Below the pieces are notes generated by a model. That model made no database searches. It had not been told where the DNA came from and saw only the letters and a list, made by a program, of their open reading frames with translations. Positions 21,220 to 45,167 of a DNA stretch of 64,000 nt are shown here, piece by piece (positions within the stretch are counted from its first letter, which is position 1; each line of letters opens with the position of its first letter). Position numbers and translations under genes: made by a program. Source of the stretch: an uncultured virus (IMG/VR IMGVR_UViG_3300009784_000011) (Duplodnaviria > Heunggongvirae > Uroviricota > Caudoviricetes); the IMG/VR virus record IMGVR_UViG_3300009784_000011, positions 1 to 64,000 of that record. One strand, given 5' to 3'.

Positions 21220-21793
21220 GTTTGCCGGCGAGCTCGGCGAAGGCGCCTTTGGAGCGGCCGAAGCCGCCGGCGGTGACGAAGCCGAGGCCGGCGCTGGGAT
21301 CAGCCCGTGGCCAATGGACCTGGGCCACGGCAACTACATGGTGCTCGACCCGGCTGCAATCGAAGCGTTGTTCACCACCCCGCAAGCCAACGCGGCGGTA
21401 CAGGCCCGCGCCCAGTCGGTGATCGACATCGCCAACGGTCTGGCCGTGCTACACGGCGTGGTCTATGAAGCCGTGGAGATCAACACCGGGCCGTGGGCGA
21501 CGAACTTCTTTGGCGTTGAGACAACCCGGCCGGTGATCGTGGTGCGGCCCAAGAACTTCTGGGCCTATCTTGAGGAACAACAGCACTCCACCCTGATGAT
21601 CGCGGCTCACATGGCGGGCAACGACCCGAAGGTCACCTACGAGAATCTGTCACAGGGCCTTCCGCTGGACGAGTCCTTCGGCGGATTCAACACGCCGCTG
21701 GGTGTGGTGATGGGCGAGATGGAGGCGTTCTCCGAGGAGCCGGGAACCGGCGACACCGCGGGCGGCGGATTTGAGGAGGGGGCCACGACATGA
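21212..21793 (+). CDS. virion neck/tail-completion protein (putative)
   Basis: Position between stopper and terminator; LDPAAIEALF...VQARAQSV core with acidic flanks. Confidence 0.5.
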   Translation: MTEFAGELGEGAFGAAEAAGGDEAEAGAGISPWPMDLGHGNYMVLDPAAIEALFTTPQANAAVQARAQSVIDIANGLAVLHGVVYEAVEINTGPWATNFFGVETTRPVIVVRPKNFWAYLEEQQHSTLMIAAHMAGNDPKVTYENLSQGLPLDESFGGFNTPLGVVMGEMEAFSEEPGTGDTAGGGFEEGATT

Positions 21794-22302
21794 CGTCCTC
21801 CTACCCGATCACGGCGGCCATCCGGCCGTTTCCCACCATGCGGCCAATCCCGGTCGAGGACGTGGCGGTGGCCTACTTCACAGCGATGCTCGATCCGCTG
21901 GTGGTCTGCACCCGTAACCCCGAGTCGCTGCCAGGCGAAGACACGCCCGGGGAGTTCCTGAGAATTCAGGCCGGAGGTGGCCGCCAGCTGCCCAACTGGT
22001 ACTGGTTCGACATGAGTGTGATCCTGCACAGCTATGCGCCCAACGACCTGGAGACTCACGCCGAGCGCAACCTCGGCGATGCCATAGCGTGGGGCGCCAA
22101 CGCACAGGGCACGCTCGTCACCATTCCTAACGGCGACCAATACTGGATCACCTACAGCTTCGCCTCGGGCACGCTCACTCGTCTGGGCGATCCGCTGGTG
22201 GACATGATCCGTTACCGCGGCATGGTGACCTGGCGCGTGCAGGGTCACCAGCTGGCGCCCAATCCGGTGGTTCCGTCACCGGATGGCCAGCCCGCGGTAT
22301 GA
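21790..22302 (+). CDS. tail terminator (probable)
   Basis: PVEDVAVAYF...FLRIQAGGG...DPLVDMIRYRG; synteny before major tail gene. Confidence 0.65.
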   Translation: MTSSYPITAAIRPFPTMRPIPVEDVAVAYFTAMLDPLVVCTRNPESLPGEDTPGEFLRIQAGGGRQLPNWYWFDMSVILHSYAPNDLETHAERNLGDAIAWGANAQGTLVTIPNGDQYWITYSFASGTLTRLGDPLVDMIRYRGMVTWRVQGHQLAPNPVVPSPDGQPAV

Positions 22303-22369
22303 CCATCGTGATCGCGTGCGTGGCACTGGGGGTCTTCCTGGCGCTGCTACTGCACTTTGACCGTAGGGA

Positions 22370-23023
22370 ATGGTGATGGGCTTCATCGAGCAGCAGGCGA
22401 GCGCCTGGACGCAGATTGTGGACATGATGATCGAGCAGCCCACCAATGTGCTCATCAACGGGTCGATGAACGGCCCCGCAGCCAACATGGCCGGGAGCGC
22501 CAACGTGCGTCACGAGCTGCCGTTTTTGCTGCGCGAGTACAAGATCACCTCGATGCTCGACGTGCCATGCGGGGACCTGTCCTGGATTCGGCACACCGAC
22601 CTGCGCAGCCTCTATGTGTATATCGGCGTCGATGTCGACCGCCGGCTCATTGACGAGGCGCGCCGAGCGTGCCCAATGGGCGGGTTCATCTGCGCCAATA
22701 TCCTCACCCGCGAGAAGCTGCCTGTGGTCGATCTGATCCTGTGCCGGGACTTCCTCATGTGCCTGCCTGACGAGCACCTGCAGTCGGTGATCGAGAAGTT
22801 CAAATGCTCGGCGGCAGCGTACCTGTTGGCGAGTAACTACCCGGGCTCGTCGAACACCTTCGACTACCATCCCGAGCAGTTCCCTATCCTCGGTTACCTG
22901 GAGAGGCCGTACGATCTCACTGCGCCACCGTTCAACCTGGAGCAGATCGACGGCATCATCGAGAACCAAGCATCGGCAGGATTGGTGAGCAAACCGCATG
23001 AGCTGGCACTATTCAAAATCTGA
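22370..23023 (+). CDS. class I SAM-dependent methyltransferase (paralog of 4625-5362)
   Basis: SMLDVPCGDLSWI, YIGVDVD, VDLILCRDFL, YLERPYDLTAPPFNL. Confidence 0.8.
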   Translation: MVMGFIEQQASAWTQIVDMMIEQPTNVLINGSMNGPAANMAGSANVRHELPFLLREYKITSMLDVPCGDLSWIRHTDLRSLYVYIGVDVDRRLIDEARRACPMGGFICANILTREKLPVVDLILCRDFLMCLPDEHLQSVIEKFKCSAAAYLLASNYPGSSNTFDYHPEQFPILGYLERPYDLTAPPFNLEQIDGIIENQASAGLVSKPHELALFKI

Positions 23024-23035
23024 TGCAGAAATCTG

Positions 23036-23512
23036 ATGCAGCCTGAGTGGGCTGCCCGATTCTGGGCGAGGGTCGACAAGAACGGGCCCATCTCAGAGCT
23101 AGGCACTCCCTGTTGGATCTGGACAGGACCACAGGCCGGAAAGGGATACGGATATCCCTGCTTCAATGGCAAGCATGAGTACGCCCACCGGCTTGCCTGG
23201 GAACTGGCCTACGGCCCGATCGGCAATGGGCTCACTATCGACCATCGCTGTCACGTTCCGCTCTGTGTCAACGCCGAGCATCTACGCTGCGTGACGCAGA
23301 AGCAGAACATCGAAAACCAGCGAAACGGGATAAGACAGAGTGCCAACGGAGTTCGTGGAGTCACCCGAGGGAGATGGGGCGTCGGCTTCACCGCCCAGCT
23401 CAAGCATGAGGGAAAGTGCATCTACCTCGGTACATACGCCACGCTCGAGGAAGCCGAGCAGGCGGCGGTCAACGGCCGCGCAAGGCTATTCACCCATTCA
23501 GACGGACGTTAG
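23036..23512 (+). CDS. HNH endonuclease with AP2-like C-terminal domain
   Basis: RFWARVDK...CWIWTG...AHRLAWEL...IDHRCHVPLCVNAEHL...N; GVRGV...YLGTYATLEEA. Confidence 0.9.
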   Translation: MQPEWAARFWARVDKNGPISELGTPCWIWTGPQAGKGYGYPCFNGKHEYAHRLAWELAYGPIGNGLTIDHRCHVPLCVNAEHLRCVTQKQNIENQRNGIRQSANGVRGVTRGRWGVGFTAQLKHEGKCIYLGTYATLEEAEQAAVNGRARLFTHSDGR

Positions 23513-23513
23513 C

Positions 23514-23542
23514 TTGACAGGATCGCGGCCGGCTTTTAGCGT
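23514..23542 (+). promoter_or_regulatory. SigA-type promoter
   Basis: TTGACA 23514-23519, 17-bp spacer, TAGCGT 23537-23542; predicted start site at or near G23550. Confidence 0.8.
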
Positions 23543-23549
23543 GAATCGC

Positions 23550-23915
23550 GTGTAGGTAACCAATTCCGCAGGACCAGTCCCGGGCAAGCTCTATATCGCT
23601 GTCCGGGCTGATTTGTCTCCGGGGCTCGCGATGGCCCAAGCAGTCCACGCCGGTATCGACTTCAGCCTGAGATTCCCCGGGCTAGTTGAGGCATGGCATC
23701 GCGATTCCAACAATGTGGTGATCGTCGGCGCGCCCAACGAGGCGGGGCTGCTGATGCTCGACAGCCTCGCCTATTCGCTCGGCATGAAACACCAGCTCGT
23801 CACCGAGCCCGACATCGGCGACGCCGCCACCGCCATCGTCCTGGAGCCCGGCTCCCTGGCCAAGCGCATGTGCGCGGAGTTCCCGCTGGCGTTACGGGAG
23901 GACGCGGTGGCCTAA
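23550..23915 (+). CDS. Pth2-family peptidyl-tRNA hydrolase with in-frame TAG at codon 2
   Basis: GTG-TAG-GTA ACC... continues in frame as VTNSAGPVPGKLYIAVRADLSPGLAMAQAVHAG...EPDIGDAATAIVLEP; the conserved KxYIxVRxDL strand lies upstream of the first alternative start (TTG 23613). Confidence 0.8.
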
Positions 23916-23920
23916 GACCC

Positions 23921-23973
23921 GGCGGCGGGGCGCTTGCGCCCGTAAGGAGGTTCGAAGCCTTCCGCCGCCACCA
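23921..23973 (+). ncRNA. 53-nt tRNA-like RNA lacking D and anticodon arms
   Basis: GGCGGCG/CGCCGCC acceptor stem, GGGCG-CTTG-CGCCC hairpin, GGAGG-TTCGAAG-CCTTC T-arm, discriminator A and CCA. Confidence 0.7.
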
Positions 23974-24012
23974 GCCGCGAGTCATGGCGACAGATGAGGC
24001 CCTAACCCTCTA

Positions 24013-24690
24013 TCAGCCCGGTCCGATCCCGGGGCGCGGCGCTTGACCGCCCGGTTTCGGGCGCCGGTGAAACCCCGAATGCTGTGCGTAGAGGTGCTCG
24101 GGATTCACGCAACCCTCATTGCGGCAGCTGCGCAGGATGACCGTGCGCGCCGGGATGGGCCCGTAGTGCAGCTCCCAGCAGTAGCGGTGCGCCAGCATGG
24201 TCTTGCCATTGACGCCGATGGTGGGCCGGCCGCGCCAGCCCCAGCAGTTGTTCTCCGGGCTCATCTGCACGCGGTCCCAGAACCGTTCCTCGGGCGTGCG
24301 CGTGATGAAGACCTCGCCGGGATCGCCGGTCTTGAGCCACGTCATGTAGTGGCTCACGCACCAGCCCCGGCAGTGCGCCGAGCGGGTGCAGCCGTCGACG
24401 ATGCACTTGGCCCACTGGGGACGCTTGAGCTCGACATTGGCGAACTTCGCGCCGATCGAGCGCCAGTAGGACCGACGTGCCGCGGTGCTGCCGGCCTTCC
24501 AGACACGCAGGTCGGGCTCCATTGTGACCTCCACCAGCCCGCGGTCCGAGAGTGCCTTGACGGCCCGGTACGCCTGTGCGCGGGTGATGGCCAGCGCGGT
24601 GGCGATGCGACCGGTGGTCAGGTATCGGCGGGTATCGCGCTCAAGAAGCGCCAGGATGCGGCGCTGCACGGACCCGATGGAGCGGCTCAC
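24013..24690 (-). CDS. wHTH + zinc finger + degenerate HNH protein
   Basis: N-terminal HTH (LTTGRIATALAITRAQAYRAVKALSDRGLV), CIVDGC...GWCVSHY, RFWDRV...AHRYCWEL...ILRSC...CVNPEHL; GTG 6 nt after TACGGT. Confidence 0.75.
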   Translation of the reverse strand: MSRSIGSVQRRILALLERDTRRYLTTGRIATALAITRAQAYRAVKALSDRGLVEVTMEPDLRVWKAGSTAARRSYWRSIGAKFANVELKRPQWAKCIVDGCTRSAHCRGWCVSHYMTWLKTGDPGEVFITRTPEERFWDRVQMSPENNCWGWRGRPTIGVNGKTMLAHRYCWELHYGPIPARTVILRSCRNEGCVNPEHLYAQHSGFHRRPKPGGQAPRPGIGPG

Positions 24691-24822
24691 AAAAAAACCG
24701 TATAGAAGTGCACGGCTTTATGGTATTCGCCCGGTCGGTCACTGCGGTGTTTCGCCGCGACGGCGCCTTACATCGCTGTAATTCTGGGAGCCGGGCCACC
24801 CTCTATTCCAAGGAGTAGACGA

Positions 24823-25482
24823 ATGACCAGCCTGTATCCCGACGCGGGGACGCTACCGCCTACCGGACAGGGCATCGTCTCTGAAGCACAAGAGATCGTT
24901 GCCCCGTTTCCTAAGGTCACCGGCGGTGTGCTGTGGGCGCCCCTGGGCAGTCCCATTCCCACCGACTCGGTGACCCCGCTGTCTTCCGATTACGTGAGCC
25001 TGGGCCGCGTGTCCGACGTCGGTGTGATCCGAAACGAGGACCGTCCGTCCACCGACCAGCACGACTGGGGTGGCGACCTGATCGCGATCCTGCAGCAGTC
25101 CTACAGCATGACGATCAAGTTCTCCCTGTTGCAGCTGATGAACGCCGACGTGCAGGGTGCGGCGCACGGCCACAATAACGTCACTGTGACAAATGCGACC
25201 GCCACCAGCGGTACCCAGATCGCCGTGAAGTACAACAGCCAGCTGCTCGACTACGGCCAGTGGGTCATCGACGCGTACTTCATCAACATGACCATGCGGC
25301 TGTTCATCCCGTATGGGCGCCTGACCGTCATCGGTCCGATGACCTGGGTGCACAAGGCGCTGGCGATGGCCGAGCTGACGCTGCGACCGTTCCCTGACCT
25401 CAACAACAACATGGCCTATGAGTATTGGGATGACGGTGTGTTGGCCACTGCCGCAGCGGGTTCCGGTACGTCGGGCACCTAA
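24823..25482 (+). CDS. major tail protein
   Basis: GGVLWAPLG..IPTD...LGRVSDVGV...DWGGD mycobacteriophage tail-tube pattern; AAGGAG RBS; synteny. Confidence 0.85.
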   Translation: MTSLYPDAGTLPPTGQGIVSEAQEIVAPFPKVTGGVLWAPLGSPIPTDSVTPLSSDYVSLGRVSDVGVIRNEDRPSTDQHDWGGDLIAILQQSYSMTIKFSLLQLMNADVQGAAHGHNNVTVTNATATSGTQIAVKYNSQLLDYGQWVIDAYFINMTMRLFIPYGRLTVIGPMTWVHKALAMAELTLRPFPDLNNNMAYEYWDDGVLATAAAGSGTSGT

Positions 25483-25995: not shown

Positions 25996-26468
25996 TGGTC
26001 GGTGCGGTGATCACGCGGCACTGGCCGGCCTTGGTGCGCGATGTCCTCGCGCTGGGCTACCGGCCAACCGACCTGTTCACCAAGCTGAGCTTCTCCGAAG
26101 TCGCCTGCATCATCATCGCCTCACCTCCCAACAGCGCGGTGCGCCATTCCGTCGACAAGGGCTGGAGCCGCGAGGCGCACCTGCTGGCGAACATGGCCGA
26201 AGGTGAGGCCGGCATCGCCAAGATCAAGGAGCCCTATCAACGGCCCGGCGTGACCGAACGCCAGTCCGACGACCCCACCCAGAACCCGTTCTTCACCGCC
26301 GATGCGCTGACCTGGGAGGAATTCGACCGGCGTGAGAAAGAACGCTACGACCCCAACCGTAAGCACGTGAAACGACCCGGTAGCAGTCATTCCCGGGCGC
26401 TGCAGAGCTCGGGCCCCCGCCCGGTTCCTAAGGTCAACGAACTGAAGTTCGGCAGGAACCGTAAATGA
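25995..26468 (+). CDS. tail assembly chaperone, frameshift extension
   Basis: -1 frame ORF (HWPALVRDVLALGY...WSREAHLLANM) ending at the tape measure start. Confidence 0.8.
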   Translation: MVGAVITRHWPALVRDVLALGYRPTDLFTKLSFSEVACIIIASPPNSAVRHSVDKGWSREAHLLANMAEGEAGIAKIKEPYQRPGVTERQSDDPTQNPFFTADALTWEEFDRREKERYDPNRKHVKRPGSSHSRALQSSGPRPVPKVNELKFGRNRK

Positions 26469-29400
26469 CGGCTTTCGGCACCAACCTGTGGGTCACCGTC
26501 CTGCCCGCCCTGCAAGGGTTGCAGGAGCGGTTCCGTGAGGCCGGCCGACTGGCCGGCGTGGCGATGGGCTACGCCGCCGGCGAGCACGTCAGCAACGCGC
26601 TCATCCAGCACGCCTCGCGCGCCGGCCAGTCGGCTGGCGCAGCAGCGGCCACCGAGTTCGGCCAGAGCTTCGGCCAGGGCGTCACTGGCGGTCAGGCCAT
26701 CGGCCAGATCCAGTCCGTGCTCACCGACTCGTTCAAGGGCTTCGGCGGAAAGCTCGCCGCCGACTTCGTGGCCGACTTCAACAACGCGCTGCAGGGCAAG
26801 GGCCTCAACTTCGGCGACCTGATGAGGCCGATGGACCAGCTCGAGAACGCGATGCTGGGCCCGATCCAGCGCGTGACCGAGCACATCCCATTGATCGGCA
26901 CAGCGCTACGCGAGGTCAAGGCAGACTTCGACACCTTCCAGGCCGCCGGTATCGGCTGGCTCTCGTCGCTGACCGACATCGCCAACCGCTACCAGGAGAT
27001 CGCGCGCACGATCGCCGGCCAGACGGTGAACACCAGTGCCATCGAGCAATACACCGGGCTTGTGCGCGACATCATGGCCTCGGGCGCACTGGTGCGTGTC
27101 GAGGATCTGGGCACCGCAATTGGCCGGCTAGGCAACAACATTCGCGATCTGGACCCTACCCAGCTCGGCGAGCTTGCCAAGAACTTCGCCCAGGTCGAGG
27201 AAGTTGTCGGCAACATCGACGCCGAGAAGTTCGCCGGCGTGCTCTCGGCGTGGCAGGTGCCTGCGACGCAGGCCAACGAAACGCTGACCATGTTGGGCAA
27301 CGTCGCCCGAGATAGCGGCCAGAAGATCAACGCCACCATGTCCGAGATGATCTCGGCCGGCCCCGCGCTGCGTGCGATGGGCTACGACTTCATGCAGACG
27401 GCGATGCTGTTCTCCGAAGCTGCCAAGTACGGTGACACCGCCCAGCGCGCGGTCTATGCGTTCACCCACGCTTACAAGCAGTTCATCGACCTCAACGTCG
27501 ATCCCAAGGCCGGCATGAAGCAGGTCCTGGAAAACATCAAGGCGATGACGGAGTCCCCGGACCCGCAACTGGAACGTGCGGGTGTGCAACTCGCCGAGCA
27601 GGTGTTCGGCCAGCGCGCCGCGGCCACCCTCGTCGACATGCTCAAGAAGGGCATCCTCGACGCCGCCGATGCGATGCACGTGCCTGAGGCATTCAAGAAG
27701 GAAATGGGCGAGACGGTCGAGCAGACGGCCACGCTGGGGCAGGAATGGGAGCGCGTCGGAGCGCAGATTCAGGCCGCGCTGCAACCGGTTGGCACCGCAC
27801 TGGCGGGCTCGCTGGCGCAATCCACCCGCGGCATCTCGGAGTGGCTGGCCGAGAACCAGGCCAAGATCCTGGGCTGGGGCGAGCAGATCACCCAGGTGGT
27901 CCTGAGCGGCGTCCAGCACATGATGAGCTTCTTCGGCGAGGCGCTGCAGGCCGGGGCGACGTTCGTCAACGCCTTCAAGGAGATGGTTTACGTCGGCTTC
28001 GAGGCCATCCTGCAGCCGCTGCACGGCTTCACTGAGCTGCTGGCCAAGGCCCATGTGCCGCATTTCAAGGAGATGGCCGATGACCTCGGCCTGATCCAGC
28101 AGAAGATGAACCAGATCCACGACTTCGACGCGGGCCGGTTCACCTACAACCTGGGCACCGGACTCAAGGAGGGTGCCGACCAGGCTGAGAACATCCGGCA
28201 GTCACTGGTCAGCTCCACCGCGCTGGCCCAGCAGGTGCTCCAGCTGCACGCCGCGTTACGGATGAACATCGGCGGCCAGATGCAGGAGGGCATCGAGCAG
28301 ATCCGTGACGCGGCCGGCCATCTGATACCGCCCACCCCGGACAACCTTGAGCTGCAGCTCAAGGGCAGTGCCGCCCAGCACGAGGCGGCAGTCAAGGCTT
28401 TCGAGAACGTCGGCGCCGGCATCGAATTCGACAAGGACGGCGTGCTAGGCGGCAAGATCCGCAGGGTTTTCGCGCTCGCCGGACACAAGGGCCTCGACGA
28501 AGCCCTCAAGGTGTTCAGGGGCGAGGTCGTCAACATCCCGGTGCAGGCCGTCGACGGTTCGGGGAACGTGATCGACGCCGATCACCCGCTGGTTGGCGGG
28601 GATGCGCTGGGCGGCGGCGACATCGACGTCACTGCGGTGGGCGGGCTGGCGCCGGTCGGCGCGGTGGACGCCAGCGGGATTCCCCGCCCGAGCGGCAGTG
28701 CTTTCGGCGGACAGCCGTTGCCGGCCGGCCAAGCCCCCGCGACACCGCCGGCACCTGCCGCCGACTCAGGTGAGCAGGGCCGCGCCGGGACACCGCCACC
28801 GCCGATGCCACCGGCCTTCGGCGTGCCCAGCACCTCCGGGCTGGTGTGGGGGGATGCCGGGCCGGTCCAGACCGGCACACTAGTCAGCTGGCATCCTGAT
28901 TACGCCGGCGCGGGTGCCGCCGCCGGCGGCTTCGGTGTCAGTGAACCGCAACGGGTCCAGCTCGTCTCGATGATCTCCCAGCTGCCGCAGGCCCCGGCGA
29001 CCGGCGCCGCACCCGACCCGGGTGCCTACCGCAACTACCTCATCTCCCAGGCGCAGGCCGCCGGCCTGAGCCCGGTTGAAATCGGCATGACGCTGGCCGT
29101 CGCCCAGCATGAAACACAGTGGCAGGAACCGGGATTCATGGGTTTCGGCCCGGAGGCCACTCGGCGTGGATACAACTACGACGCCGATCCCAAGGGCGCG
29201 ATCGACCAGTTCATCCGGCAGTACACCACCCGCCTGGGACAGGCCCCGGGACTCAACCGCAACGATCCCGCCGCGGTCGCCGATTACATCTGGCACACCG
29301 TTCACGGTGCCGCCGACCCTCACTACGGTGCCTCGCTGATGTCGACCTACCAGGGCATTGGCCCGACTAGCGGGCCGCTCTCCCCGCAGGCGACCCAGGC

Positions 29401-32400
29401 GCTGGACCACGCCAGCGACACGGTCAAGGGACTGTCTGCGCAGATGCCAGTCGGGTTCGCCGACGCCCGCAGCCTGGCCGACCAGCTCCGGGGCGTCGGT
29501 TACCAATGGGGCGGTGCCGGGGACAAAGTCAACCAGTTCATGTATGACTGCTCGGGCCTGATCAGCGAGATGTACAAGACGCTGACCGGCCTGCCGGCAG
29601 GCCCGGAGGTCAAGGGCGGCCCACAGGGCGGCCGGTTCACCACCCAGACCCTGATGGACCCAAAGCAGCTCGCCGCGCTGGGATTCGTGCCGGGCTACGA
29701 CCCCACCTCGATGTTCAACATCGGCTTCAACGCGGCACACGTGGCGGGTTCGCTGGGCACCGAGGCGCAGGGCCAGCTCAACATCGAGTCCAATGCCCCG
29801 CCCGGCTACGTCCAGGTGGGCGCGGGCACCAAGGGCGCGCACGACCCGCAGTTCACCCAGTTCGCACACCTGCCCGACTGGATGGTCCGTGGTGCCGGCA
29901 CGCCGACCGGAACCCCGCAGACCATCTGGGGCACCGGCGCCGCCGGCACCCAGACGATTCCGCTGGAAGCGTGGCGAGGCTGGATCGCCGGCGGCAAGCA
30001 TTACCCGCTGGGAGTCTCTCAAGCGTCCCCGCAGTTGCAGTATCTGGCCCAGATCATCTCGATGATCCCGCAGTTCAGCGCGCTGCAGGCGACTGCGCAG
30101 GGCGGTGGGCTGGAATTTACCGGCGAGGATGCCCAGCTTCGGGCATTGCACGCCGAGCTTCAAAAATCCGGCATCCCGATGACCGAGGTCCCTGGGGCGC
30201 TGGATGTCACGGTGCCCCAAGAGCACATGCAGCGGTTGATCTACGACACGATCTCCCACTTCACGCCAGTCGGTCAGGAGGTCAGCTTCGGCGGTCCCGG
30301 CGGCGTCAACATCGAGCCGGTGCCGGCGGGGACAGCCGGAGCGCCACACGCGCCGGCCCCGCCGCATGACATGTCACAGGGCGACTGGGCGGCCCTGGGT
30401 GCCGAAACCCTGTTGGGTGGGTTGGCGGCACGGTTCATCGCGTGGCCGATGATCCGGCGCATCTTCGGGATGGCGCGCGGTCTGCGGGCCGGCGCGCGAG
30501 GGGTAACGGGGGGTGCCGGATTCGGCGGTGCCGCACGCGGTGCTGGCGGCGGCTACGCTGCCGCGTACTGGGCGATCAAGGCCGCAGAAGCTGCGCGCCA
30601 AGCACCGCGGGGCGGCTCGGAAGCTTTGCGCGCGGCAGGACTGGACGTTGACCCGATCAGCCAGCGGCTCTGGGAAAGCGGCCCCACGTTTTTCGAGCGC
30701 ATCAGTGGGCTGGACAGACTGCGCAGCATCGCGTCGATGCAGCAGTTCCTCAACCAAGCAGACATGCTCGGCGAGGCGGGTTACCCCGAGGGGCTGCTGC
30801 CCCCGGATCTGGGTGCTACAGGTATTCCCAGTCCGGCGTTAGTGCGCCGGGCGCACCGGATCGCTGCGGGCGAGTCCGCGCTGCGGCCCGGTTTCGGCGC
30901 ATTGGAACTGGGAGCCGGGCCGCTCGGTGAGAGCTTCCGTGATCCGGTCACCGGACAGTTCCTGCCGTCAGCGACCTGGGCTGCCGGTCCCGGCGGGGAG
31001 TCGCCCTACCCGTTCGACCTGATGAGCAGCATGAGCCGGTTCCAGCCCGGCCAGATCGCCACCTGGACAGGCATGGCCCGGCCCACCTTCCTCGATGATC
31101 TGGCCGCTGCTCAGCGGCAATTCCTCCGGTTGGCTCAGCTGCCGGCCGAATCCAACTGGCTCACTCAACTCAACCTCGCTCAGCAGCCTTTCGGCGCGCC
31201 GACCTACGACCGTTACCGCGGCCTGATGAGCACCCTGAGCCAGGCCGCGCCCGGCGACATCCTAGGAGCCGTCCCGGAAGCGCAGCGGATGGCGGCCGAT
31301 GCTGTCGCATTGGCCCGCAACATTGGGCTCACCTTCGGTGGGGCGCCGCGTTCGGTATCGGCCCGCGCCCAGGAACTACGCAGCCTGTTCGCGCGAGGAC
31401 CGGCGGCAACGCCGATCACCGGGGCGCTCGCCGACATCCCCGCCGACATCATGCAACGGCTCACCGGCGGGGTAGCAGGATTGCCGCTGCTCACCACGCC
31501 CGAAGCCCCAGCCGAAGCCTTGATCCGCAACATCCAGGCGATGGCGGGACAGGTCGAGCTCCGTCAGACGATGAACTGGCTCGCCGCCGAGGCGCAGGCC
31601 CTTTCTGGTGCCGGGCGCCAGTATGTGATGCCCGGTGTCGCGATGCCGCAGGGTCTTTTCTTCCAGCAGGCGCAGGCGGCAGAAGCCGCGATCCGGGCCA
31701 GGATGGCGGCCGGCGAGCTTGGCGCAGGTGTGGAGTGGGGCATCGAACGCGGGCCGCTACCCGAGGTTGATCCGCGCATCTACCCGTTGCCACCCGGCGA
31801 GATTTATCCCAGTCTCGGTGAGGGATACGACCCCACGTCGATAGCGACGGGGCAGCAGATCTATGGCCGCCCACTTCCGGGTGGCGGCATGAGCCGGGAC
31901 TACTGGATCGAAGGTAGCGGGAACTCCTGGCGGCTACACGACCTGCGCACCGGCGGCGAACCGCTCCAGCTCGGACAATACCGGACCCGCAAAGCTGCGA
32001 CGGAGGGCTTGCGTCAGCATCTGACCCAAGTGCGTCGAGCGCAGCAAGAACAGGCGATCGCCCGGGCGAACGAGGTAGCCCGGCGCGCTAGGTCGCTAAC
32101 GGGCATGGGACCGGCGCTGCGGGAATCCACGGCCGAGGTCACCGCACGAATCTCAGAAGCAGTGGCCCAGGCGGGATTCGGCAATATCCCCGAGGCTGCA
32201 ATGGCCCGGGTGTCGCGTTTTGTCCAGGACCCCGCCGAGGCGCAGCTGCTCGCCCAGATGCTCGGCATCGAGCCTGGGAAGGTTGAGCCCATCTTCGGTC
32301 CCGAGCCACCGCCGACGCCAGCGGGGATGGTGGCCGAGGCCCAGGCCGCGCTCGAGGCCGGCGAGGCGATCACCCCCAAGGCCGGTGAGGCGACTATCTC

Positions 32401-35400
32401 GAAGGCCGAAGCCGGCCAGACTTGGCGTCGGTACCGTCCCCGCACCGCCGCCGGCGAAGGCAACTTCATCATCTCGGGCAAGCGCGGCCGCTATACCGTC
32501 CGTGACCTCACCGAGCGCGGTGCCGAACGCCAGGTCGGCGGAGAGTACCGCACCGTCACCGAGGCTCGCCAGGAGCTCGAAGCCGAGGTGGAACGGATAC
32601 ACCAGGCTGCGCTCGAGGAACTGCGGGCCGGCCTGGACGCCACCCGCGCCGTGCAACGCAGCCGCGACATCGCCGACGTGATGGGGATGCTTGAGACGGG
32701 GCCGGCGTTTGACACCGGCGGCTTCGCCGACATATTGCGCGGCCTGCAGCTCCCGGCACCGCCTGCGCCCATTTCCATTCCGTACCCCCAGTTCCCGACG
32801 CCGGCAGCTCCCGTCTCCATTCCCTATCCCCAGTTCCCCGCGCCGCGACCGACTCCCCTGTTGATGCCGCGCGTGCGGCCTACGCCACCGCCGGTATCCA
32901 GCGAGACGCTCGCCGGGCGCCCAATCCTGGAAGCAGTGGGCCGGATGCCGCGCGCTTGGCCGAGCGAACTACCCGCAGGACCGCCCAGCCCGGCAATCGT
33001 GGCGAGTTATCTGGACTCTTTCCAGAAGTATTGGAACGACCTGAGCCCTATAGAGAAGTACGCGGTCTCGCAGGCTCACGCAATGGGCACCCTTCCGATG
33101 GAGGACCTGCTCGCACATGCGGGGTTCGAGAGTGCCGGCGGCTGGGACCCGGGAATGCTCAGCGCGCTCGAATCCGCCATCGCTCCCACCCTTACCACTT
33201 CCGTGCAGGACGTGATCGGAGCCCCAGCTGCCGCGGCGGCGGGGGCTCCCGCGCCAGCTGCCGCGGCAGCGGCACCTGGAACTTACGCCATCGGTCCCGG
33301 TGCCCTCGCGCCCGAAGTCCTCGCCACACCGCCACGGCCACCGGCCCCACTGGCGCCCCCCGGGCTGCTCAGTCGTCTTCTGACCGAGCGCCCCTCTGTC
33401 TCGTGGTTGCCAGCGCCGGTCCAGCGGGCGCTCGGCCAGCTCAGCGACCTCTACTCCCGGCTTCCCGCGCCGGTACGCACGGGCCTGCGGTGGGGAGGAC
33501 GCGCGCTGGAAGTCGGCCAGGTCGCCGGAGCGGGCGTCGAGGCCGCGCACGGTGTCGCCGAGCAGGACACGACGGCAGAGAAGGTTGGTGCGCTGGCCCT
33601 TACGGCGGGTGGAACGGCTTTACTGGCTGCGGCCGCGCCAGAACTCGGTACCTTCGCGGCGGTGCTGGGCGCCGCCGCCGGTGCGGCACAGTTGGACGAG
33701 CTCGTTCAGCGACACGCGCCCGGACTGGTCGCAGCGACCCAGGACTGGACTCCCGGTGCGATCGCCGACCGTCTGGGAGCAGGAACGCGACGGATTTTCG
33801 CCGGCGCTCTGCCGAGATTCTTCGGACCACCACCCACCGCTCCACCGCCAACGCAGCCGGTTGCACCCACCGGCCCACCGGCCGGTGGGCCACCACCGCC
33901 ACCGCCGGGGCTGCCCAGCGTCCTCGGAGCAGGAGGGGGTACGCCGCCAACGGTGCACGTCGTGCCACCCCCCGGCGAGGAACACCGCTGGCGCGGCATT
34001 TATCCGGCTATCTCAGGCATGCTTCCCGGCGGAGCGGACTGGGAAGCGCAATATGGCGGTAAGTCGGGAATCGAGCAGGCCCTCACCGCCGAGCTCGGCT
34101 CCGGTGGCATGACGCTAGCCAAGGATATTGTCGGCGGGATCAATAAGCTCGGCCCCACGATCGCTGACCTGATTGGTGCGGCAGGCAAGGGCATCGTCGA
34201 TCTTGCGAGGCCGCCGAGCGAGGCCGAGCGGCGGGAGTGGGGTCCGGGCTCGGAGTTCGGCGCCCTAGGCAAGGCTCGCGACGAAGCGCCCGTCGCTGAC
34301 GCCGTCTCCGATGCGGTTGGAGATGTCTCCGACGCGGGCGTGGACATTGTGCATAGTGTCGGCGATGCCTTTCATAGCTTTTGGTTCGGTTCTCCGCCCG
34401 CGAGGCCGACACCTAAGGCACCCCCGGTCACACCCCCGACAAAACCCAGCGACACAGGTGGCGACGAGGACTGGGACTCGGAGGACTTCACCGGACCCGA
34501 GGGCGTGATCCAGCCCGTCGAGGCAGCCCCGAAATGGACTGTTACAGAGGGAGTCCCCCAGCCGCTCGCCCCGAAGGATCAACCGGATCAACCGGGCGAC
34601 ACCGGCGGCGGAGGCGGCGGCGGTGGTGGCGGTGGCACCACCGATAGCGGCGACTTCGATGAGGACGACGACTTCACCGGCCCCGAGGGTGTCATCCAGC
34701 CGGCCGAGGCCCCTGCGCCACAGGCCCCGGCTCAGGGCGGTGGCGGTCCACCGCCGCCCGAGCAACAGGCCGGTGGTCCGCCCCCATTGGAACAGCCCGG
34801 TGGCGCCCCCGGGACCACTCCTGGACAGCCCCCTCCCACAACCTTCACCACCACCCCCGGCGGCAGCGGCTACGGAACTCCCGTCTTCGTCACGAACTGG
34901 CCCGGTGTGGGCGCCGGTACTGGCGCGGCGGGAGCTCCCCCACCGGCAGCCCCCGCGCCTGCTCCCGCGCCTGCTCCCGCGCCTGCGCCCGCACCCGGCG
35001 CCGAGGCGCCGCCAGTAGCCGCCGCAGCACCGGCCGCAGCACCGCCTACTGGCGCACCACCGGAGGGTGGTCCGGCGGCGCTGGCACCGTCACCGGGAGC
35101 TACGGCCGCGACGGGACCCATCCCGGCCGGAGCCAGCCCTGACCAGATGGCTTACGGAGGGCAGCCGTATGGCCCGCAGGGTCCGATCGACCTCAACTAC
35201 TTCGACCCCTATTCCCGGTATCCCGCGATGCACCAGCGGGCCTACCGGACGTGGCTGCATGAGTACGAGCGGTGGCAGATCGAAGTCAGCACCCGGTCCC
35301 CGCAGATCGAGCTGCTGAATTCAGAGCTCGCCAGCGCGAAGTCGGCTTATGACATCGAGCAGCAGAAGTGGGGTGCCATCGTCGCCCGGGGCGAGGCCGA

Positions 35401-36649: not shown

Positions 36650-36652
36650 GCC

Positions 36653-37756
36653 ATGACCGCCGCCTCGCCCGCCCTGCTCCCCTCCCCGCTGTTCCCGGGG
36701 AGCACGACCGCCGCCTACGTGCTGCCCGAGCTCGACGTGGGCAGCGATTTCGGGGCCCTGCCGCTCACGCTGCGCGGCATGGAGACGCGGTGCGTCTACA
36801 TCTCCCCGGCTGGCGATCTGTTCAACCTGACGGGCCCGATGGCCGGTCTGGAGGGCGTGCGGATCATCACCCAGCTCACCGGCGACCAGTCCTGGCCGAT
36901 CGAGCAGGTGCTCACCCGCTCGCCCTACATCATGGGAGCGCGGATCAACCGCACCAACGTGGGCGAACGGCACTTCCAGGCCGGGATCATGATCGGCAGC
37001 CACTCCCCGCCGCTGACCGAGTACCAGTACCGGATGGCCAACAACCACTGGTGGGCCAGCCAGGACGAGAACAACGACGGCTGGTTCGGCATGTATACCC
37101 GGTTCTCGGGATGGCGCTGGATTCCGCTGCGCATCTTCCAGACAATCAAGACCCCGCAGCGCATCGACCCGACTGCCTTCGGCAACAACGCCGCGGCCTG
37201 GGACATCAGCTGGATCGCCCAGCGGCCGTGGTTCACCAAGGTCGCGCTCTACGACAGCTTCCAGGCCAGCATGGTCACCACCCCCACACTGGCCCCAGCC
37301 GGTTCCATCTCGGGCACGCCCGAGGAAGCCGAGTATTACTGGGGCACCGTGGTGCTGGCCAACCGCGGCGATCTGCCCAGTTGCGCGCAGTTCTTCATCA
37401 CCAGCCCCGGCCAGGCCATCGTGCAGGACAACGACTCGCAGCGGCTGGTGGTGCTGCCGCTGACCACGACCAACGTCGGCACTTACATGTGCGACACGGC
37501 TCCCGGCGTGCGGACGCTGACCGCGGCCAATGACCCGTCCGACAACCTGCTGTTCGACTTCATCCGGCAGTCCACCATCCTGGACTTCTTCCTGGGCGGT
37601 ATCGCCAATGAGGGACTGCCGCTGGCGATGCAGTTCCAGAACCGCTTCATCTACCAGGTGCCACCGCAGACGGTGTGTTCGTTCACCGTGGGCCACTCCA
37701 ATCCCGGCGGCGTCATCACGGTGCTGATGCCCCAGATGTATAAGCGCGGCACATGA
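36653..37756 (+). CDS. minor tail protein (distal tail/Dit position)
   Basis: First gene after tape measure; YISPAGDLFNLTG, GWRWIPLR, NRGDLP motifs. Confidence 0.75.
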   Translation: MTAASPALLPSPLFPGSTTAAYVLPELDVGSDFGALPLTLRGMETRCVYISPAGDLFNLTGPMAGLEGVRIITQLTGDQSWPIEQVLTRSPYIMGARINRTNVGERHFQAGIMIGSHSPPLTEYQYRMANNHWWASQDENNDGWFGMYTRFSGWRWIPLRIFQTIKTPQRIDPTAFGNNAAAWDISWIAQRPWFTKVALYDSFQASMVTTPTLAPAGSISGTPEEAEYYWGTVVLANRGDLPSCAQFFITSPGQAIVQDNDSQRLVVLPLTTTNVGTYMCDTAPGVRTLTAANDPSDNLLFDFIRQSTILDFFLGGIANEGLPLAMQFQNRFIYQVPPQTVCSFTVGHSNPGGVITVLMPQMYKRGT

Positions 37757-39744: not shown

Positions 39745-40418
39745 CGACCTACAAAGAGCGCAATCCCCGGCGCCGCGGCAGCCAGCCCAACCGGGATTCC
39801 AAGTACGCCTTCCCCGGCTCGAACCCCTACGCCCGGTCCAGCCACGCGCCGTTGCTGGAGTTCGGCGAGTGGGGCGAGCTGACGCCCAAGACGATCCAGC
39901 AGGCCGGCCTGACCGGCGAAGCCCGCAAGCGCGCCCAGGAGCTGCTCAAGGTGCAGGCCGCCTACCTGGAGATTTACCAGGCGCTGGACTTCCCCAACGA
40001 TCCCGAGGGCAACGTATGCGATCTGTCTGGCGCGCACATGACCCAGCCCAAGATCGCGATCGCCTGGACGCTGGCCCTGCTGGGCTTTCGGCGCACTGGG
40101 CGCGGCTACATCAAGAAACGCCACTACGACGTGCCCGGCGTCTACGACAACGCCTACTACTACGTCGACTCGCGCGCACCCGACGAGGCGTTCGAGGAAC
40201 TGCGTCCCGAACACCGTTCTGGCGACTACAAGCTGCCACCGGACACCCGCCGGCTGGCCGCGATGCGCGACGGCGAGGAGCCCATGCAGTTCCCGCCGGG
40301 CTGGGCGGTCAAGCCCGAGGTCAACATCGAGTACATCGACCGCGACGAGTACCGCAAACGTTGCGCGACCGAGAACGCGGAGCGCCCGGAATCGGGCAGT
40401 GAGGATGAGCAGTCATGA
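39741..40418 (+). CDS. tail-region protein (DUF2744-like)
   Basis: GTGA overlap; IAWTLALLGFRR...IKKR motif; synteny. Confidence 0.55.
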   Translation: MTTYKERNPRRRGSQPNRDSKYAFPGSNPYARSSHAPLLEFGEWGELTPKTIQQAGLTGEARKRAQELLKVQAAYLEIYQALDFPNDPEGNVCDLSGAHMTQPKIAIAWTLALLGFRRTGRGYIKKRHYDVPGVYDNAYYYVDSRAPDEAFEELRPEHRSGDYKLPPDTRRLAAMRDGEEPMQFPPGWAVKPEVNIEYIDRDEYRKRCATENAERPESGSEDEQS

Positions 40419-41650: not shown

Positions 41651-41656
41651 GCACTG

Positions 41657-45157: not shown

Positions 45158-45167
45158 GCAGCTGGTC

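What the first reader, a model, noticed from the sequence alone, without database searches (positions are those of the whole stretch)
23514..23915. Leaderless GUG-UAG start-stop gating a peptidyl-tRNA hydrolase: candidate termination-failure sensor
Seen: TTGACA-17bp-TAGCGT places the predicted transcription start at G23550, the first base of GTG, which is immediately followed by TAG and then an unbroken frame encoding a Pth2-like protein. The conserved first strand KLYIAVRADL lies between the TAG and the first usable start (TTG 23613, the final L of that motif), so a complete 121-aa enzyme needs amber readthrough or a non-canonical start. Established: leaderless translation is common in actinobacteria, UAG is read only by RF1, Pth2 enzymes recycle peptidyl-tRNA, and lambda bar minigenes link very short ORFs to Pth demand. 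Inference: the hydrolase is made only when RF1-dependent termination fails (host defence or stress) or a suppressor is present, giving a self-regulating translation-rescue or anti-defence switch.
Basis: partly seen in the sequence, partly recalled or inferred. Interest (0 to 1): 0.92.

Follow-up and report, generated by a model that had tools for sequence, protein, structure and literature searches.

The report
Amber-gated phage Pth2 gene cassette
A phage gene for a tRNA-cleaning enzyme begins with a start codon followed at once by a UAG stop, a layout kept in many unrelated phages that also carry a UAG-reading tRNA, so the enzyme is probably made only when that tRNA works.

Summary
TTGACA-17 nt-TAGCGT-7 nt-GTG-TAG is followed in frame by a Pth2-fold ORF. 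That ORF has no canonical start before its first beta strand. The sequence is identical in a complete 127-kb genome and in contigs of four runs, so it is not an assembly error.

It is not a fresh pseudogene either. Two relatives at about 70% protein identity keep ATG-TAG-GTA behind the same promoter, and the codons between TAG and the next start evolve under purifying selection.

A start codon, 0-3 codons and then TAG head Pth2-like genes in 18 phage lineages. These include cluster C mycobacteriophages, pT24, RAS14, XacN1, GAP32 and ME3. In 14 of them ARAGORN finds a tRNA(CUA), usually next to the gene; for XacN1 the paper reports two. The window itself has a sub-threshold tRNA(CUA)-like gene at 23974-24042, found with a model built from the relatives' suppressors.

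Best reading: leaderless GUG-UAG, with synthesis of the hydrolase coupled to amber suppression by the cassette's own tRNA. RF1-failure sensing is untested, and reinitiation after the start-stop remains a rival. I found no publication of this link.

The parts
23514..23519 (+). -35-like hexamer TTGACA
   Evidence: Sequence. It is conserved as TTGACA/TTGACG in L017, L018, cluster C1/C2, L151, L152, L156, L164 and L020, while flanking sequence diverges. It is the only TTGAC-N16-19-TANNNT match inside the window. The tool's stricter scan did not pick it up.
23537..23542 (+). -10-like hexamer TAGCGT (TANNNT), 17 nt after the -35 and 7 nt before the GTG
   Evidence: Relatives have TAGTTT, TAACTT, TACCGT, TACTGT, TACAGT, TATGGT, TAACCT, TATCGT or TAGGAT, 6-7 nt before their start codon. 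Function is inferred.
23550..23552 (+). GTG start codon, predicted 5' end of a leaderless mRNA
   Evidence: It is ATG in L017 and L018. A start codon sits at the same place in all early-TAG lineages.
23553..23555 (+). in-frame TAG at codon 2, followed by a purine (G)
   Evidence: It is conserved in L017 and L018 and in 15 further lineages. Contigs of 4 runs show no variant here.
23556..23915 (+). Pth2-like ORF, 119 codons plus TAA, with no ATG/GTG/TTG before codon 20
   Evidence: PF01981 E 2.7e-7. A profile against the PDB hits Bit1/PTRH2 1q7s at E 7e-9 and archaeal Pth2. The AF2 model has pLDDT 87.7, and Foldseek gives 1q7s TM 0.74/0.77. Codons 1-25 are under purifying selection.
23921..23973 (+). 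anticodon-less tRNA-like element: closing stem GGCGGCG/CGCCGCC, tetraloop hairpin, T-arm-like GGAGG-TTCGAAG-CCTTC, then ACCA
   Evidence: Fold (z -0.6; -2.6 and -2.1 in L017 and L018). It is conserved with compensatory changes in L017 and L018. Like elements lie between pth2 and tRNA(CUA) in L152, L164, Myrna, Alice, L151, L156 and L020. It gives weak hits to the tRNA model R1 (17.5 bits). Function unknown.
23974..24042 (+). candidate non-canonical amber suppressor tRNA(CUA); anticodon CTA at 24002-24004 in the loop CCCTAAC
   Evidence: Model R1, built from 15 relatives' tRNA(CUA), scores 28.3 bits with E 6e-6 and 3.9e-5. Orthologs score 45.9 bits in L018 and 24.0 bits in L017, with CUA aligned to the model anticodon. 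The acceptor and T stems covary. Its position matches the tRNA(CUA) of L152 and L164. ARAGORN misses it at default settings and finds it only at -ps80. Rfam gave no + strand tRNA match at E up to 10.
23036..23512 (+). HNH endonuclease gene flanking the cassette upstream
   Evidence: PF13392 E 1.4e-16. L017 and L018 have different sequence upstream of the promoter.
24013..24690 (-). HNH endonuclease gene with an N-terminal HTH, converging on the cassette; its last codons overlap the tRNA-like gene
   Evidence: PF13392 E 7.8e-7 plus HTH families; ORF.

Best explanation
The stretch is a small self-contained cassette inserted between the tail-terminator and major-tail genes of an actinophage-like siphovirus. 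The cassette consists of its own promoter, a leaderless mRNA beginning GUG-UAG, a 119-codon Pth2-fold hydrolase ORF in frame behind the UAG, an anticodon-less tRNA-like element and a tRNA(CUA)-like gene. Ribosomes start on the 5'-terminal GUG. The full enzyme (121 codons) is made only if the UAG at codon 2 is decoded as an amino acid. The decoder is most likely the amber suppressor tRNA encoded just downstream, probably on the same transcript. Otherwise RF1 ends translation after one residue. Hydrolase output would therefore track the activity of the suppressor tRNA. Shown: the sequence layout, its conservation, selection on the post-UAG codons, the Pth2 fold, and the co-occurrence with tRNA(CUA). 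Inferred: the transcription start, decoding of UAG by this tRNA, co-transcription, and the purpose. The purpose I think most likely is to supply a peptidyl- or N-acyl-aminoacyl-tRNA hydrolase in proportion to suppressor activity, either as clean-up of the products of suppression or as feedback on it.
For: (1) The layout is in the window, and the same DNA is in a complete genome and in 4 runs. (2) L017 and L018 (71% and 69% protein identity, dS 0.5-1.0) keep ATG-TAG-GTA and the promoter. dN/dS of the 25 codons between TAG and the internal ATG is 0.40, 0.21 and 0.08; for codons 11-25 it is 0.18, 0.04 and 0.13; for the rest of the gene it is 0.17-0.33. (3) A start codon, 0-3 codons and TAG in frame with the Pth2-like domain occur in 18 lineages: window, L017, L018, cluster C1, C2, L151, L152, L156, L164, L020, L013, L014, L158, pT24, RAS14, XacN1, GAP32 and ME3. 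The mechanical count is 17 of 21 lineages against 20 of 415 control frames, binomial 2e-19; I trust 15 of those 17. (4) In 7 lineages a Shine-Dalgarno motif (or, in pT24, simply the ATG) serves the start upstream of the TAG and no start codon follows the TAG: L013, L014, L158, pT24, RAS14, GAP32 and ME3. XacN1 has the same upstream start but also an ATG 4 codons after its TAG. (5) ARAGORN finds a tRNA(CUA) in 14 of 14 early-TAG lineages outside the window clade that I checked. In 8 locus groups it is the only tRNA held, and pT24 has only 3-4 tRNAs in all. XacN1 has two according to its paper. Three contigs with normally started Pth2-like genes have none in 111, 150 and 47 kb (0 of 1, 1 and 32 tRNAs). 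(6) The window clade has a tRNA(CUA)-like gene at the syntenic place. (7) The base after the TAG is a purine in all 18 lineages, against 12 of 20 ordinary TAG stops in this phage. From recall, a 3' purine favours amber suppression. (8) The truncated products would lack strand 1.
Against: No RNA or protein data exist for any member. The transcription start is inferred, and the tool's promoter scan did not call this site. The window's tRNA-like gene is sub-threshold for ARAGORN and Rfam. It has C instead of the near-universal U before the anticodon, a 4-bp anticodon stem, an odd T loop (TCCGATC) and a poor D arm, so it may be non-functional. TAG ends 20 of 106 coding-looking ORFs of this phage, with no clear enrichment of back-up stops, so a strong suppressor would extend a fifth of its own proteins. 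In 5 actinophage-type relatives a GTG or ATG follows the TAG directly (one codon later in L151). In cluster C1/C2 a GAAGG/GGAGG motif lies 7 nt before that codon, which fits ordinary initiation there. Lineages are not independent, and several genomes are fragments. L163 has an adjacent tRNA(CUA) but apparently a normal start.
Confidence: 0.6

Rival explanations
1. Start-stop with restart. The 5'-terminal GUG-UAG is a true one-codon ORF. RF1 terminates on it, and the same ribosome restarts on the adjacent codon (GUG or AUG in relatives, near-cognate GUA here). The hydrolase would then be made without any suppressor, and the start-stop only sets or tunes the level. The neighbouring tRNA(CUA) would serve other purposes.
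For: The codon after the TAG is GTG in C1, C2 and L164, ATG in L156 and L020, and AAG-ATG in L151. It is GTA, one transition from GTG, in all three members of the window clade, although GTA ends in A in a genome whose ORFs have about 80-90% G+C at third positions. In C1, C2, L017 and L018 an SD-like GAAGG/GGAGG/GAGGG lies 7 nt before that codon.
Against: L152 and 7 SD-type lineages have no start codon after the TAG (ACA, GGT, ATT, AAC, ATA, ACC, AAT, ATT), and XacN1 has none until 4 codons on, yet all keep the TAG. The stop is always TAG, matching the CUA anticodon next door; a plain start-stop could use any stop codon. GUA is not a known bacterial start codon (recall). The SD-like motif is absent from the window, L164, L156, L151, L152 and L020.
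Confidence: 0.2
2. The phage has no working suppressor, since the tRNA-like gene is a relic. The UAG is passed only by rare near-cognate host tRNAs, so the hydrolase rises when RF1-dependent termination fails through stress, defence or a co-infecting suppressor-bearing phage.
For: The tRNA-like gene is sub-threshold and atypical. TAG is a normal stop for 20 of 106 ORFs, which argues against strong constitutive suppression. The early UAG is conserved.
Against: The atypical features (C33, TCCGAT loop) are shared by the window and L017 at dS about 0.6, and the stems covary with L018. This looks maintained rather than decaying. Every other early-TAG lineage examined has a standard tRNA(CUA). There is no evidence on RF1.
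Confidence: 0.12
3. Truncated or dying gene. Translation starts at TTG 23613 or ATG 23631 and gives a 100- or 94-residue product, or the gene is a pseudogene.
For: Gene callers chose the 94-aa ATG form for this phage and for the two 70% relatives. TTG 23613 is the first canonical start.
Against: The codons upstream of those starts are under purifying selection as strong as in the rest of the gene. TTG is CTG in L018. The truncated forms lack strand 1 of the Pth2 fold, and the ATG form also lacks the start of helix 1. The TAG layout is kept over very distant phages.
Confidence: 0.05

Closest known systems
Phage stop-codon recoding with phage-encoded suppressor tRNAs (for example TAG- or TGA-recoded gut phages; recalled, not read here)
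   Same: A phage-encoded tRNA reads an in-frame stop codon in a phage gene, so expression depends on that tRNA.
   Different: Here the phage uses the standard code: TAG ends 20 of 106 ORFs and there is no excess of internal TAGs. Only one gene is gated, the stop sits at codon 2-4, and gene and tRNA form one small cassette. For XacN1 the authors read through 18 annotated amber stops and found no target for its two tRNA(CUA) genes (PMC5852040, passages read).
prfB (RF2) autoregulation through an early in-frame UGA (recalled)
   Same: The gene of a translation factor carries an early in-frame stop codon, so its output reports how well that stop is read.
   Different: There is no frameshift site here, the stop is UAG at codon 2, and the product is a Pth2-fold hydrolase rather than the factor that reads the stop.
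Lambda bar minigenes and bacterial start-stop mini-ORFs
   Same: A one- to three-codon ORF ends in a stop, and there is a functional link to peptidyl-tRNA hydrolase.
   Different: The mini-ORF is fused in frame to the hydrolase gene itself, always ends in UAG, and travels with a tRNA(CUA).
Canonical Pth2 / PTRH2 (PF01981; Bit1 1q7s, archaeal Pth2 2zv3, 3erj, 1xty)
   Same: Same fold (TM 0.7-0.78) and a profile match at E 7e-9. PTH2 genes are known in jumbo phages and in cluster C tRNA arrays (PMC7824862 and PMC5966550, passages read).
   Different: The phage family has a 2-residue gap where Pth2 has the G-K-G-K stretch (alignment), and its own invariant set is Q28, H31, E84, D86, T92. The substrate is unknown. 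In the passages I read, those papers do not mention the amber codon, and the word 'suppressor' occurs 0 times in either main text.
   Same: A UAG-containing leader in front of a Pth2-like operon in a large phage, proposed to need the phage's own UAG-reading tRNA; about thirty related loci.
   Different: There it is described as a leader gene before two small genes. Here the start and UAG are fused in frame to the hydrolase and the mRNA is leaderless.

Membership tests
PTH2 peptidyl-tRNA hydrolase (PF01981) | Match to the family profile above the curated cut-off | tested here: met
   31.2 bits against a cut-off of 23, E 2.7e-7, residues 11-99. A profile of 14 homologs hits 7 solved Pth2 sequences at E 7e-9 to 3e-3.
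PTH2 peptidyl-tRNA hydrolase (PF01981) | Pth2 alpha/beta fold | tested here: met
   AF2 model pLDDT 87.7, pTM 0.81. Foldseek top 11 chains are all Pth2/Bit1 or structural-genomics homologs that also match the Pth2 profile, TM 0.66-0.78, E down to 9e-7.
PTH2 peptidyl-tRNA hydrolase (PF01981) | Catalytic residues of characterised Pth2 (Lys, Asp and Thr of archaeal Pth2; recalled, not from a call) | tested here: inconclusive
   The AQxxHA motif and an acidic E-P-D stretch are kept, but the G-K-G-K stretch is a 2-residue gap (alignment; invariant columns).
PTH2 peptidyl-tRNA hydrolase (PF01981) | Hydrolysis of peptidyl- or N-acyl-aminoacyl-tRNA | not testable with these tools
   Needs an enzyme assay.
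Leaderless mRNA (actinobacterial type) | Promoter placed so that transcription starts on the A or G of an ATG or GTG | tested here: met
   The -10-like hexamer ends 6-7 nt before the start codon in the window, L017, L018, C1, C2, L151, L152, L156, L164 and L020. This rests on sequence only.
Leaderless mRNA (actinobacterial type) | Mapped 5' end at the start codon | not testable with these tools
   No run on record as RNA holds the stretch.
Suppressor-dependent (programmed read-through) gene | In-frame stop conserved among diverged homologs, with coding constraint directly behind it | tested here: met
Suppressor-dependent (programmed read-through) gene | Cognate suppressor tRNA available | tested here: inconclusive
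   Met in 14 of 14 other lineages checked with ARAGORN. In the window there is only a sub-threshold tRNA(CUA)-like gene.
Suppressor-dependent (programmed read-through) gene | Read-through protein observed | not testable with these tools
   Needs proteomics or reporters.
tRNA (for 23974-24042) | Detected as a cloverleaf by general tRNA finders | tested here: not met
   ARAGORN at default settings finds 0 in the window and in all of G001. Rfam gives no + strand tRNA match here at E up to 10. ARAGORN finds it only at -ps80.
tRNA (for 23974-24042) | Match to a model of the relatives' tRNA(CUA), CUA in a 7-nt loop, covarying acceptor and T stems, same gene order | tested here: met
   28.3 bits at E 6e-6; L018 45.9 bits; L017 24.0 bits. 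Pairs with changes on both sides appear in the T stem. The acceptor is GCCGCGA/GCGCGGC here against GCCGCAC/GTGCGGC in L018. The order pth2, tRNA-like element, tRNA(CUA) is as in L152 and L164.
Start-stop ORF with reinitiation | A usable restart codon next to the stop | tested here: not met
   GTA in the window, L017 and L018. It is met (GTG or ATG) in C1, C2, L164, L156 and L020.

The most novel reading that the evidence does not exclude
Phages of very different hosts share a portable translation cassette. In it, a Pth2-fold hydrolase is encoded behind a UAG at codon 2-4 and is co-transcribed with its own amber suppressor tRNA and, in actinophages, with arrays of anticodon-less tRNA-like minihelices ending in ACCA. 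The cassette would be a closed feedback circuit. The hydrolase is made only when the suppressor is charged and wins against RF1, and it in turn acts on the suppressor's acylated or peptidyl forms, or on charged minihelices. This would give the long-puzzling suppressor tRNAs of standard-code phages both a natural target and a regulator.
Probability: 0.25. Interest if true: 0.9.

Novelty: new variant of a known kind. Interest (0 to 1): 0.8.

Why it matters
Many standard-code phages carry amber suppressor tRNAs whose targets are unknown. The XacN1 authors looked for one and found none (PMC5852040). This locus and its relatives point to a specific conserved target, the phage Pth2-like gene, whose amber codon sits so close to the start that gene callers and annotators miss it. 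Records for pT24, RAS14, XacN1 and GAP32 and the metagenome gene calls start the gene 4 to 42 codons late. In cluster C mycobacteriophages the annotated GTG hides the ATG-TAG in front of it.

If the reading is right, it gives a natural and compact example of gene expression gated by a suppressor tRNA, including decoding of a stop at codon 2 of a leaderless mRNA. It also gives a directly testable system in Mycobacterium smegmatis phages. It links phage tRNA arrays, peptidyl-tRNA hydrolysis and termination efficiency in a single circuit. For annotation, it shows that an early in-frame stop next to a matching suppressor tRNA should not be read as a pseudogene or a late start.

Tried and rejected
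- **Near-identical DNA in the phage collection:** none found.
- **P0002 in viral contigs:** none found.
- **Collection scan for TTGACA-N17-TANNNT-N6-7-RTGTAGGTA:** 118 stretches. By eye, all but about four (L024, L073, L089, L125) belong to one abundant coding family (..DYVGTEEYF..) that reads the motif in another frame. The output was cut, so the split is approximate. The scan is not informative.
- **Second ATGTAGGTA in the window (63581-63589, - strand):** it lies in coding-looking sequence without a promoter, so I treat it as chance.
- **ATGTAGGTR elsewhere in phage Alice:** 3 matches against 3 for the reversed control. It is not a general promoter feature.
- **Global TAG recoding:** rejected. 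TAG ends 20 of 106 coding-looking ORFs. Only 4 internal-looking TAGs were seen (against 7 TGA), and each has a start codon 0-5 codons later.
- **Is the downstream tRNA-like element a decayed copy of the relatives' tRNA(CUA)?** There is no sequence likeness, and L152 and L164 have both elements. Rejected.
- **Rfam:** nothing at E up to 1 in L017 or L018, and only weak chance-level hits in the window region.
- **Covariance model of the minihelix:** the MAFFT alignment put the 5' strands out of register, so I built no model.
- **Expression:** no RNA holder is listed for this stretch.
- **Earlier notes of this scan:** nothing by place or by sequence.
- **L019 (ATG-TAG, then 14 codons, then SD and ATG) and L162 (GTG, 3 codons, TAG, far upstream):** both meet the mechanical criterion. 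I count them as chance because a normal SD and ATG start follows, and because L161, a relative of L019, has CTC-TAG there.
- **Not done:** Complex prediction, the search of protein representatives and the protein-atlas search were not used.
Full report
**1. What is in the window.** One search shows TTGACA (23514-23519), 17 nt, TAGCGT (23537-23542), 7 nt, then GTG (23550), TAG (23553) and GTA (23556). One search translates the frame as ..V*VTNSAGPVPGKLYIAVRADLSPGLAMAQAVHA.., open to TAA at 23913-23915. The first canonical in-frame starts after the TAG are TTG 23613 and ATG 23631; the public gene call for this phage is that 94-residue ATG form.

The 119 codons after the TAG match Pfam PTH2 (E 2.7e-7, 31.2 bits, cut-off 23). 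A profile of 14 homologs hits human Bit1/PTRH2 and archaeal Pth2 structures (E 7e-9 to 3e-3). An AlphaFold2 model (pLDDT 87.7) superposes on them at TM 0.66-0.78. Its first strand is residues 12-17 (LYIAVR), so products starting at TTG (residue 20) or ATG (residue 26) would lack a core strand.

The tool's own promoter scan called nothing here, because TAGCGT shares only 3 letters with TATAAT. By the looser TTGAC-N16-19-TANNNT pattern this is the only such site inside the window.

**2. Not an error and not global recoding.** The window is a fragment of a 73-kb virus record. It is identical, with 0 mismatches in 64,000 bases, to part of a complete 127,488-bp genome with terminal repeats, G001. 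Contigs of 4 of 4 runs laid carry 23400-24100 without any difference at depth 7-12; these runs may include the source sample.

TAG is an ordinary stop in this phage. It ends 20 of 106 coding-looking ORFs, including the 770-codon protease-like ORF. Internal TAGs flanked by coding signal are no more frequent than TGA (4 against 7), and each is followed within 0-5 codons by a start. The pth2-like ORF is the only coding-looking ORF of at least 80 codons in G001 that is preceded by RTG + up to 3 codons + TAG.

**3. Context.** PHROGs assigns a portal, head protease, major head, tail terminator (21790-22302), methyltransferase (22370-23023), major tail protein (24823-25482) and tail chaperone. Two HNH endonuclease genes flank the stretch. 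The cassette therefore sits in a small island inside the virion-gene block.

The portal is about 50% identical to those of roughly 110-kb Mycobacterium phages, and the G+C content is 66%. An actinobacterial host is therefore likely. This is the setting in which leaderless AUG- or GUG-initial mRNAs are common (PMC4633059, seen only as a search listing and abstract start).

**4. Close relatives keep the layout.** Two metagenome contigs, L017 and L018, encode proteins 71% and 69% identical. Both have TTGACA, a TANNNT hexamer (TAGTTT, TAACTT), 6 nt, and then ATG-TAG-GTA. Sequence upstream of the promoter is unrelated to the window's.

Synonymous divergence is 0.5-1.0. Even so, the 25 codons between the TAG and the internal ATG have dN/dS of 0.40, 0.21 and 0.08. 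For the KLY..LA part the values are 0.18, 0.04 and 0.13. The rest of the gene gives 0.17-0.33. That region is therefore translated. The TTG at 23613 is CTG in L018.

**5. The layout is widespread.** Cluster C1 mycobacteriophages (Alice, Bxz1, BadAgartude, L155, L157) read TTGACA..TAC[CT]GT-GAAGGC-ATG-TAG-GTG, with the GTG annotated as the start. Cluster C2 (Myrna, L154) reads ..TACAGT-CGGAGGC-GTG-TAG-GTG. Other actinophage-type contigs read:
- L151: GTG-TAG-AAG-ATG
- L152: ATG-ACC-TAG-ACA
- L156: ATG-TAG-ATG
- L164: ATG-TAG-GTG
- L020: ATG-CCC-GCC-TAG-ATG

Each of these lies 6-7 nt behind a TANNNT hexamer.

In phages of other hosts a Shine-Dalgarno motif serves an ATG or GTG that is followed by 1-3 codons and TAG:
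- L013: AGGAGG..ATG-GAT-TAG-GGT
- L014: GTG-ACT-TAG-ATT
- L158-160: ATG-TGT-TTA-TAG-AAC
- Tenacibaculum phage pT24: ATG-AAA-TAG-ATA
- Stenotrophomonas phage RAS14 and Xanthomonas phage XacN1: ATG-AAG-TAG-ACC
- Cronobacter phage GAP32: ATG-GCA-CAA-TAG-AAT
- Acinetobacter phage ME3: ATG-ACT-TAG-ATT

Except in XacN1, which has an ATG 4 codons after its TAG, no start codon follows the TAG before conserved residues. In RAS14 and XacN1 the TAG heads a fusion protein whose Pth2-like domain is C-terminal. Public annotations start these genes 4 to 42 codons late.

A mechanical count over 21 lineages gave 17 with ATG/GTG + up to 3 codons + TAG. The control was 20 of 415 other open frames of at least 100 codons in the same loci (4.8%), giving a binomial P of 2e-19. 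I discount two of the 17 (L019, L162) as chance, and the lineages are not independent.

The base after the TAG is a purine in all 18 early-TAG lineages. Among this phage's ordinary TAG stops it is a purine in 12 of 20.

**6. A tRNA(CUA) travels with it.** ARAGORN finds a tRNA with anticodon CUA as follows:
- 49-310 nt downstream of the gene in Alice, Myrna, L020, L151, L152, L154-L157, L158-160 and L164.
- About 90 nt upstream of the mini-ORF in L014, about 1 kb upstream in L013 and about 400 nt upstream in ME3.
- About 2.5 kb upstream in pT24, which has only 3-4 tRNAs.
- About 3 kb downstream in GAP32.
- Elsewhere in the genome in RAS14.

That is 14 of 14 early-TAG lineages outside the window clade that I examined. 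XacN1 has two according to its paper. In L013, L014, L020, L152, L158-160, L163, L164 and ME3 it is the only tRNA in the stretch held.

The converse also holds. Three contigs whose Pth2-like genes have ordinary starts carry no suppressor among 1, 1 and 32 tRNAs in 111, 150 and 47 kb; these genomes are 58%, 80% and 13% complete.

There are two exceptions. L163 has a normal-looking start but an adjacent tRNA(CUA). LR745208 has a normal GTG start and an adjacent ochre-type tRNA(UUA). Taking 18 of 18 against 1 of 6, a hand-computed hypergeometric tail is 19/134,596, about 1.4e-4. This count includes XacN1 on the paper's word and the three window-clade members on the model below.

**7. The window's own tRNA(CUA)-like gene.** ARAGORN at default settings finds no tRNA in the window or anywhere in G001. 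Rfam's tRNA model gives no match here and reaches at best 27.2 bits elsewhere in G001.

The 70 nt after the pth2 3' element nevertheless contain an invariant CTAACCC flanked by covarying stems. A covariance model built from 15 relatives' tRNA(CUA) genes matches three places over its full length:
- window 23974-24042: 28.3 bits, E 6e-6
- L017 4417-4484: 24.0 bits, E 1e-4
- L018 4421-4488: 45.9 bits, E 6e-11

In each, CUA aligns to the model's anticodon. The model also matches ordinary tRNAs, so the score shows tRNA-likeness; the anticodon comes from the alignment. ARAGORN reports tRNA(cta) at 23964-24042 only at 80% thresholds.

The acceptor stem is GCCGCGA/GCGCGGC in the window and GCCGCAC/GTGCGGC in L018. 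The loop is CCCUAAC in the window and L017, with C where U33 is expected, and UUCUAAC in L018. The D arm is poor. The gene order pth2, tRNA-like element, tRNA(CUA) is the same in L152 and L164. I rate it a candidate suppressor with about even odds of being functional.

**8. The element at 23921-23973.** It folds as a closing stem, a tetraloop hairpin and a T-arm-like hairpin, followed by ACCA. The z-scores are modest (-0.6, -2.6, -2.1). It keeps its pairs through compensatory changes in L017 and L018. One to three similar anticodon-less, ACCA-ended elements lie between pth2 and tRNA(CUA) in L152, L164, Myrna/L154, Alice/L155, L151, L156 and L020 (judged by eye and by single folds). I could not model them properly, and their role is open.

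**9. Mechanism.** In every lineage the initiation signals (a promoter placed for a 5'-terminal start codon, or a Shine-Dalgarno motif) serve the start codon upstream of the UAG. The stop is always UAG, a CUA tRNA is at hand, and the codons behind the UAG are under selection. The simplest account is therefore that the UAG is decoded by the phage suppressor, and that hydrolase synthesis is coupled to that tRNA's activity.

The position at codon 2-4 would keep the failed product tiny and the inserted residue harmless; this point is inference. The purpose of the coupling is also inferred. It may be clean-up in proportion to suppression, feedback on the suppressor, or timing.

The main rival is a true start-stop followed by restart. 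It is favoured by the GTG or ATG right after the TAG in five actinophage lineages, and by an SD-like motif 7 nt before it in clusters C1 and C2. It cannot explain the eight lineages that have no restart codon behind the TAG, nor the exclusive use of UAG. Both modes may coexist.

**10. What is known.** PTH2 genes in jumbo phages and in cluster C tRNA arrays have been noted and linked to ribosome rescue (PMC7824862 and PMC5966550, passages read; 'suppressor' occurs 0 times in either main text). Seven full-text searches found no paper that links a phage Pth2 gene to an in-frame amber codon or to a suppressor tRNA. Subscription journals are not covered.

It agrees with this reading but is not independent evidence.

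**11. Verdict.** I class this as a new variant of a known kind, with high interest.

Noticed in passing
window 23921-23973; L152:3340-3405; L164:3328-3408; L142:1540-1668; L001:1876-2124; L151, L156 and L020 intergenic stretches: Anticodon-less tRNA-like elements (acceptor-like stem plus T arm, often a tetraloop hairpin, ending in ACCA or NCCA) lie singly or in arrays of 2-3 between the Pth2-like gene and the tRNA(CUA). I found no description of them in the searches made.
   Followed up: partly
G001:8312-8504 (- strand), about 170-360 nt before the window's first base; locus L006: Behind a TTGACA-17-TACCCT promoter lie two tRNA-like pieces (RF00005 27.2 and 11.3 bits, below the cut-off) with canonical T arms, followed by a D-arm-like stretch. 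There are weak partial hits to YrlA (Y RNA-like) and to the tmRNA T arm. No CUA anticodon was seen.
   Followed up: partly
G001 97-123 kb, - strand (outside the window): Eight near-identical promoters, TTGAC[AT]-17-TA[TG]AAT, are each followed by the conserved leader [AG]GTAGTTGAAGGTTGAGAAAT. This looks like a phage-specific early promoter and leader family.
   Followed up: no
L147 (RAS14), L165 (XacN1), L146 (pT24), L166 (GAP32), L167 (ME3): The Pth2-like domain is fused to, or adjacent to, a second conserved domain (..HFPNHA..HDM.FH..FGG.ES.SFKIKFK..). The order is reversed between pT24 and RAS14/XacN1, and the two are separate ORFs in GAP32 and ME3. The early TAG stays at the 5' end of the Pth2-like ORF or of the fusion protein that contains it. 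The second domain was not identified.
   Followed up: no
L145 (LR745208.1, 485-kb uncultured phage): A Pth2-like gene with an ordinary SD and GTG start is followed 33 nt later by a tRNA with anticodon UUA (ochre-suppressor type).
   Followed up: no
Public records NC_049383.1, OP752703.1, AP018399.1, NC_019401.1, NC_041884.1: Annotated CDS starts of the Pth2-like genes lie 4 to 42 codons downstream of the TAG or split the gene into pieces. In cluster C records the annotated GTG start is immediately preceded by ATG-TAG or GTG-TAG.
   Followed up: partly
window 21790-25482: The cassette lies with a methyltransferase and two HNH endonuclease genes between the tail-terminator and major-tail-protein genes. 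This island interrupts the virion-gene block.
   Followed up: partly
window 26465-36649 (G001 35141-45325): A single 3,395-codon open frame lies downstream of the tail chaperone, presumably a very long tape-measure protein. It was not examined.
   Followed up: no
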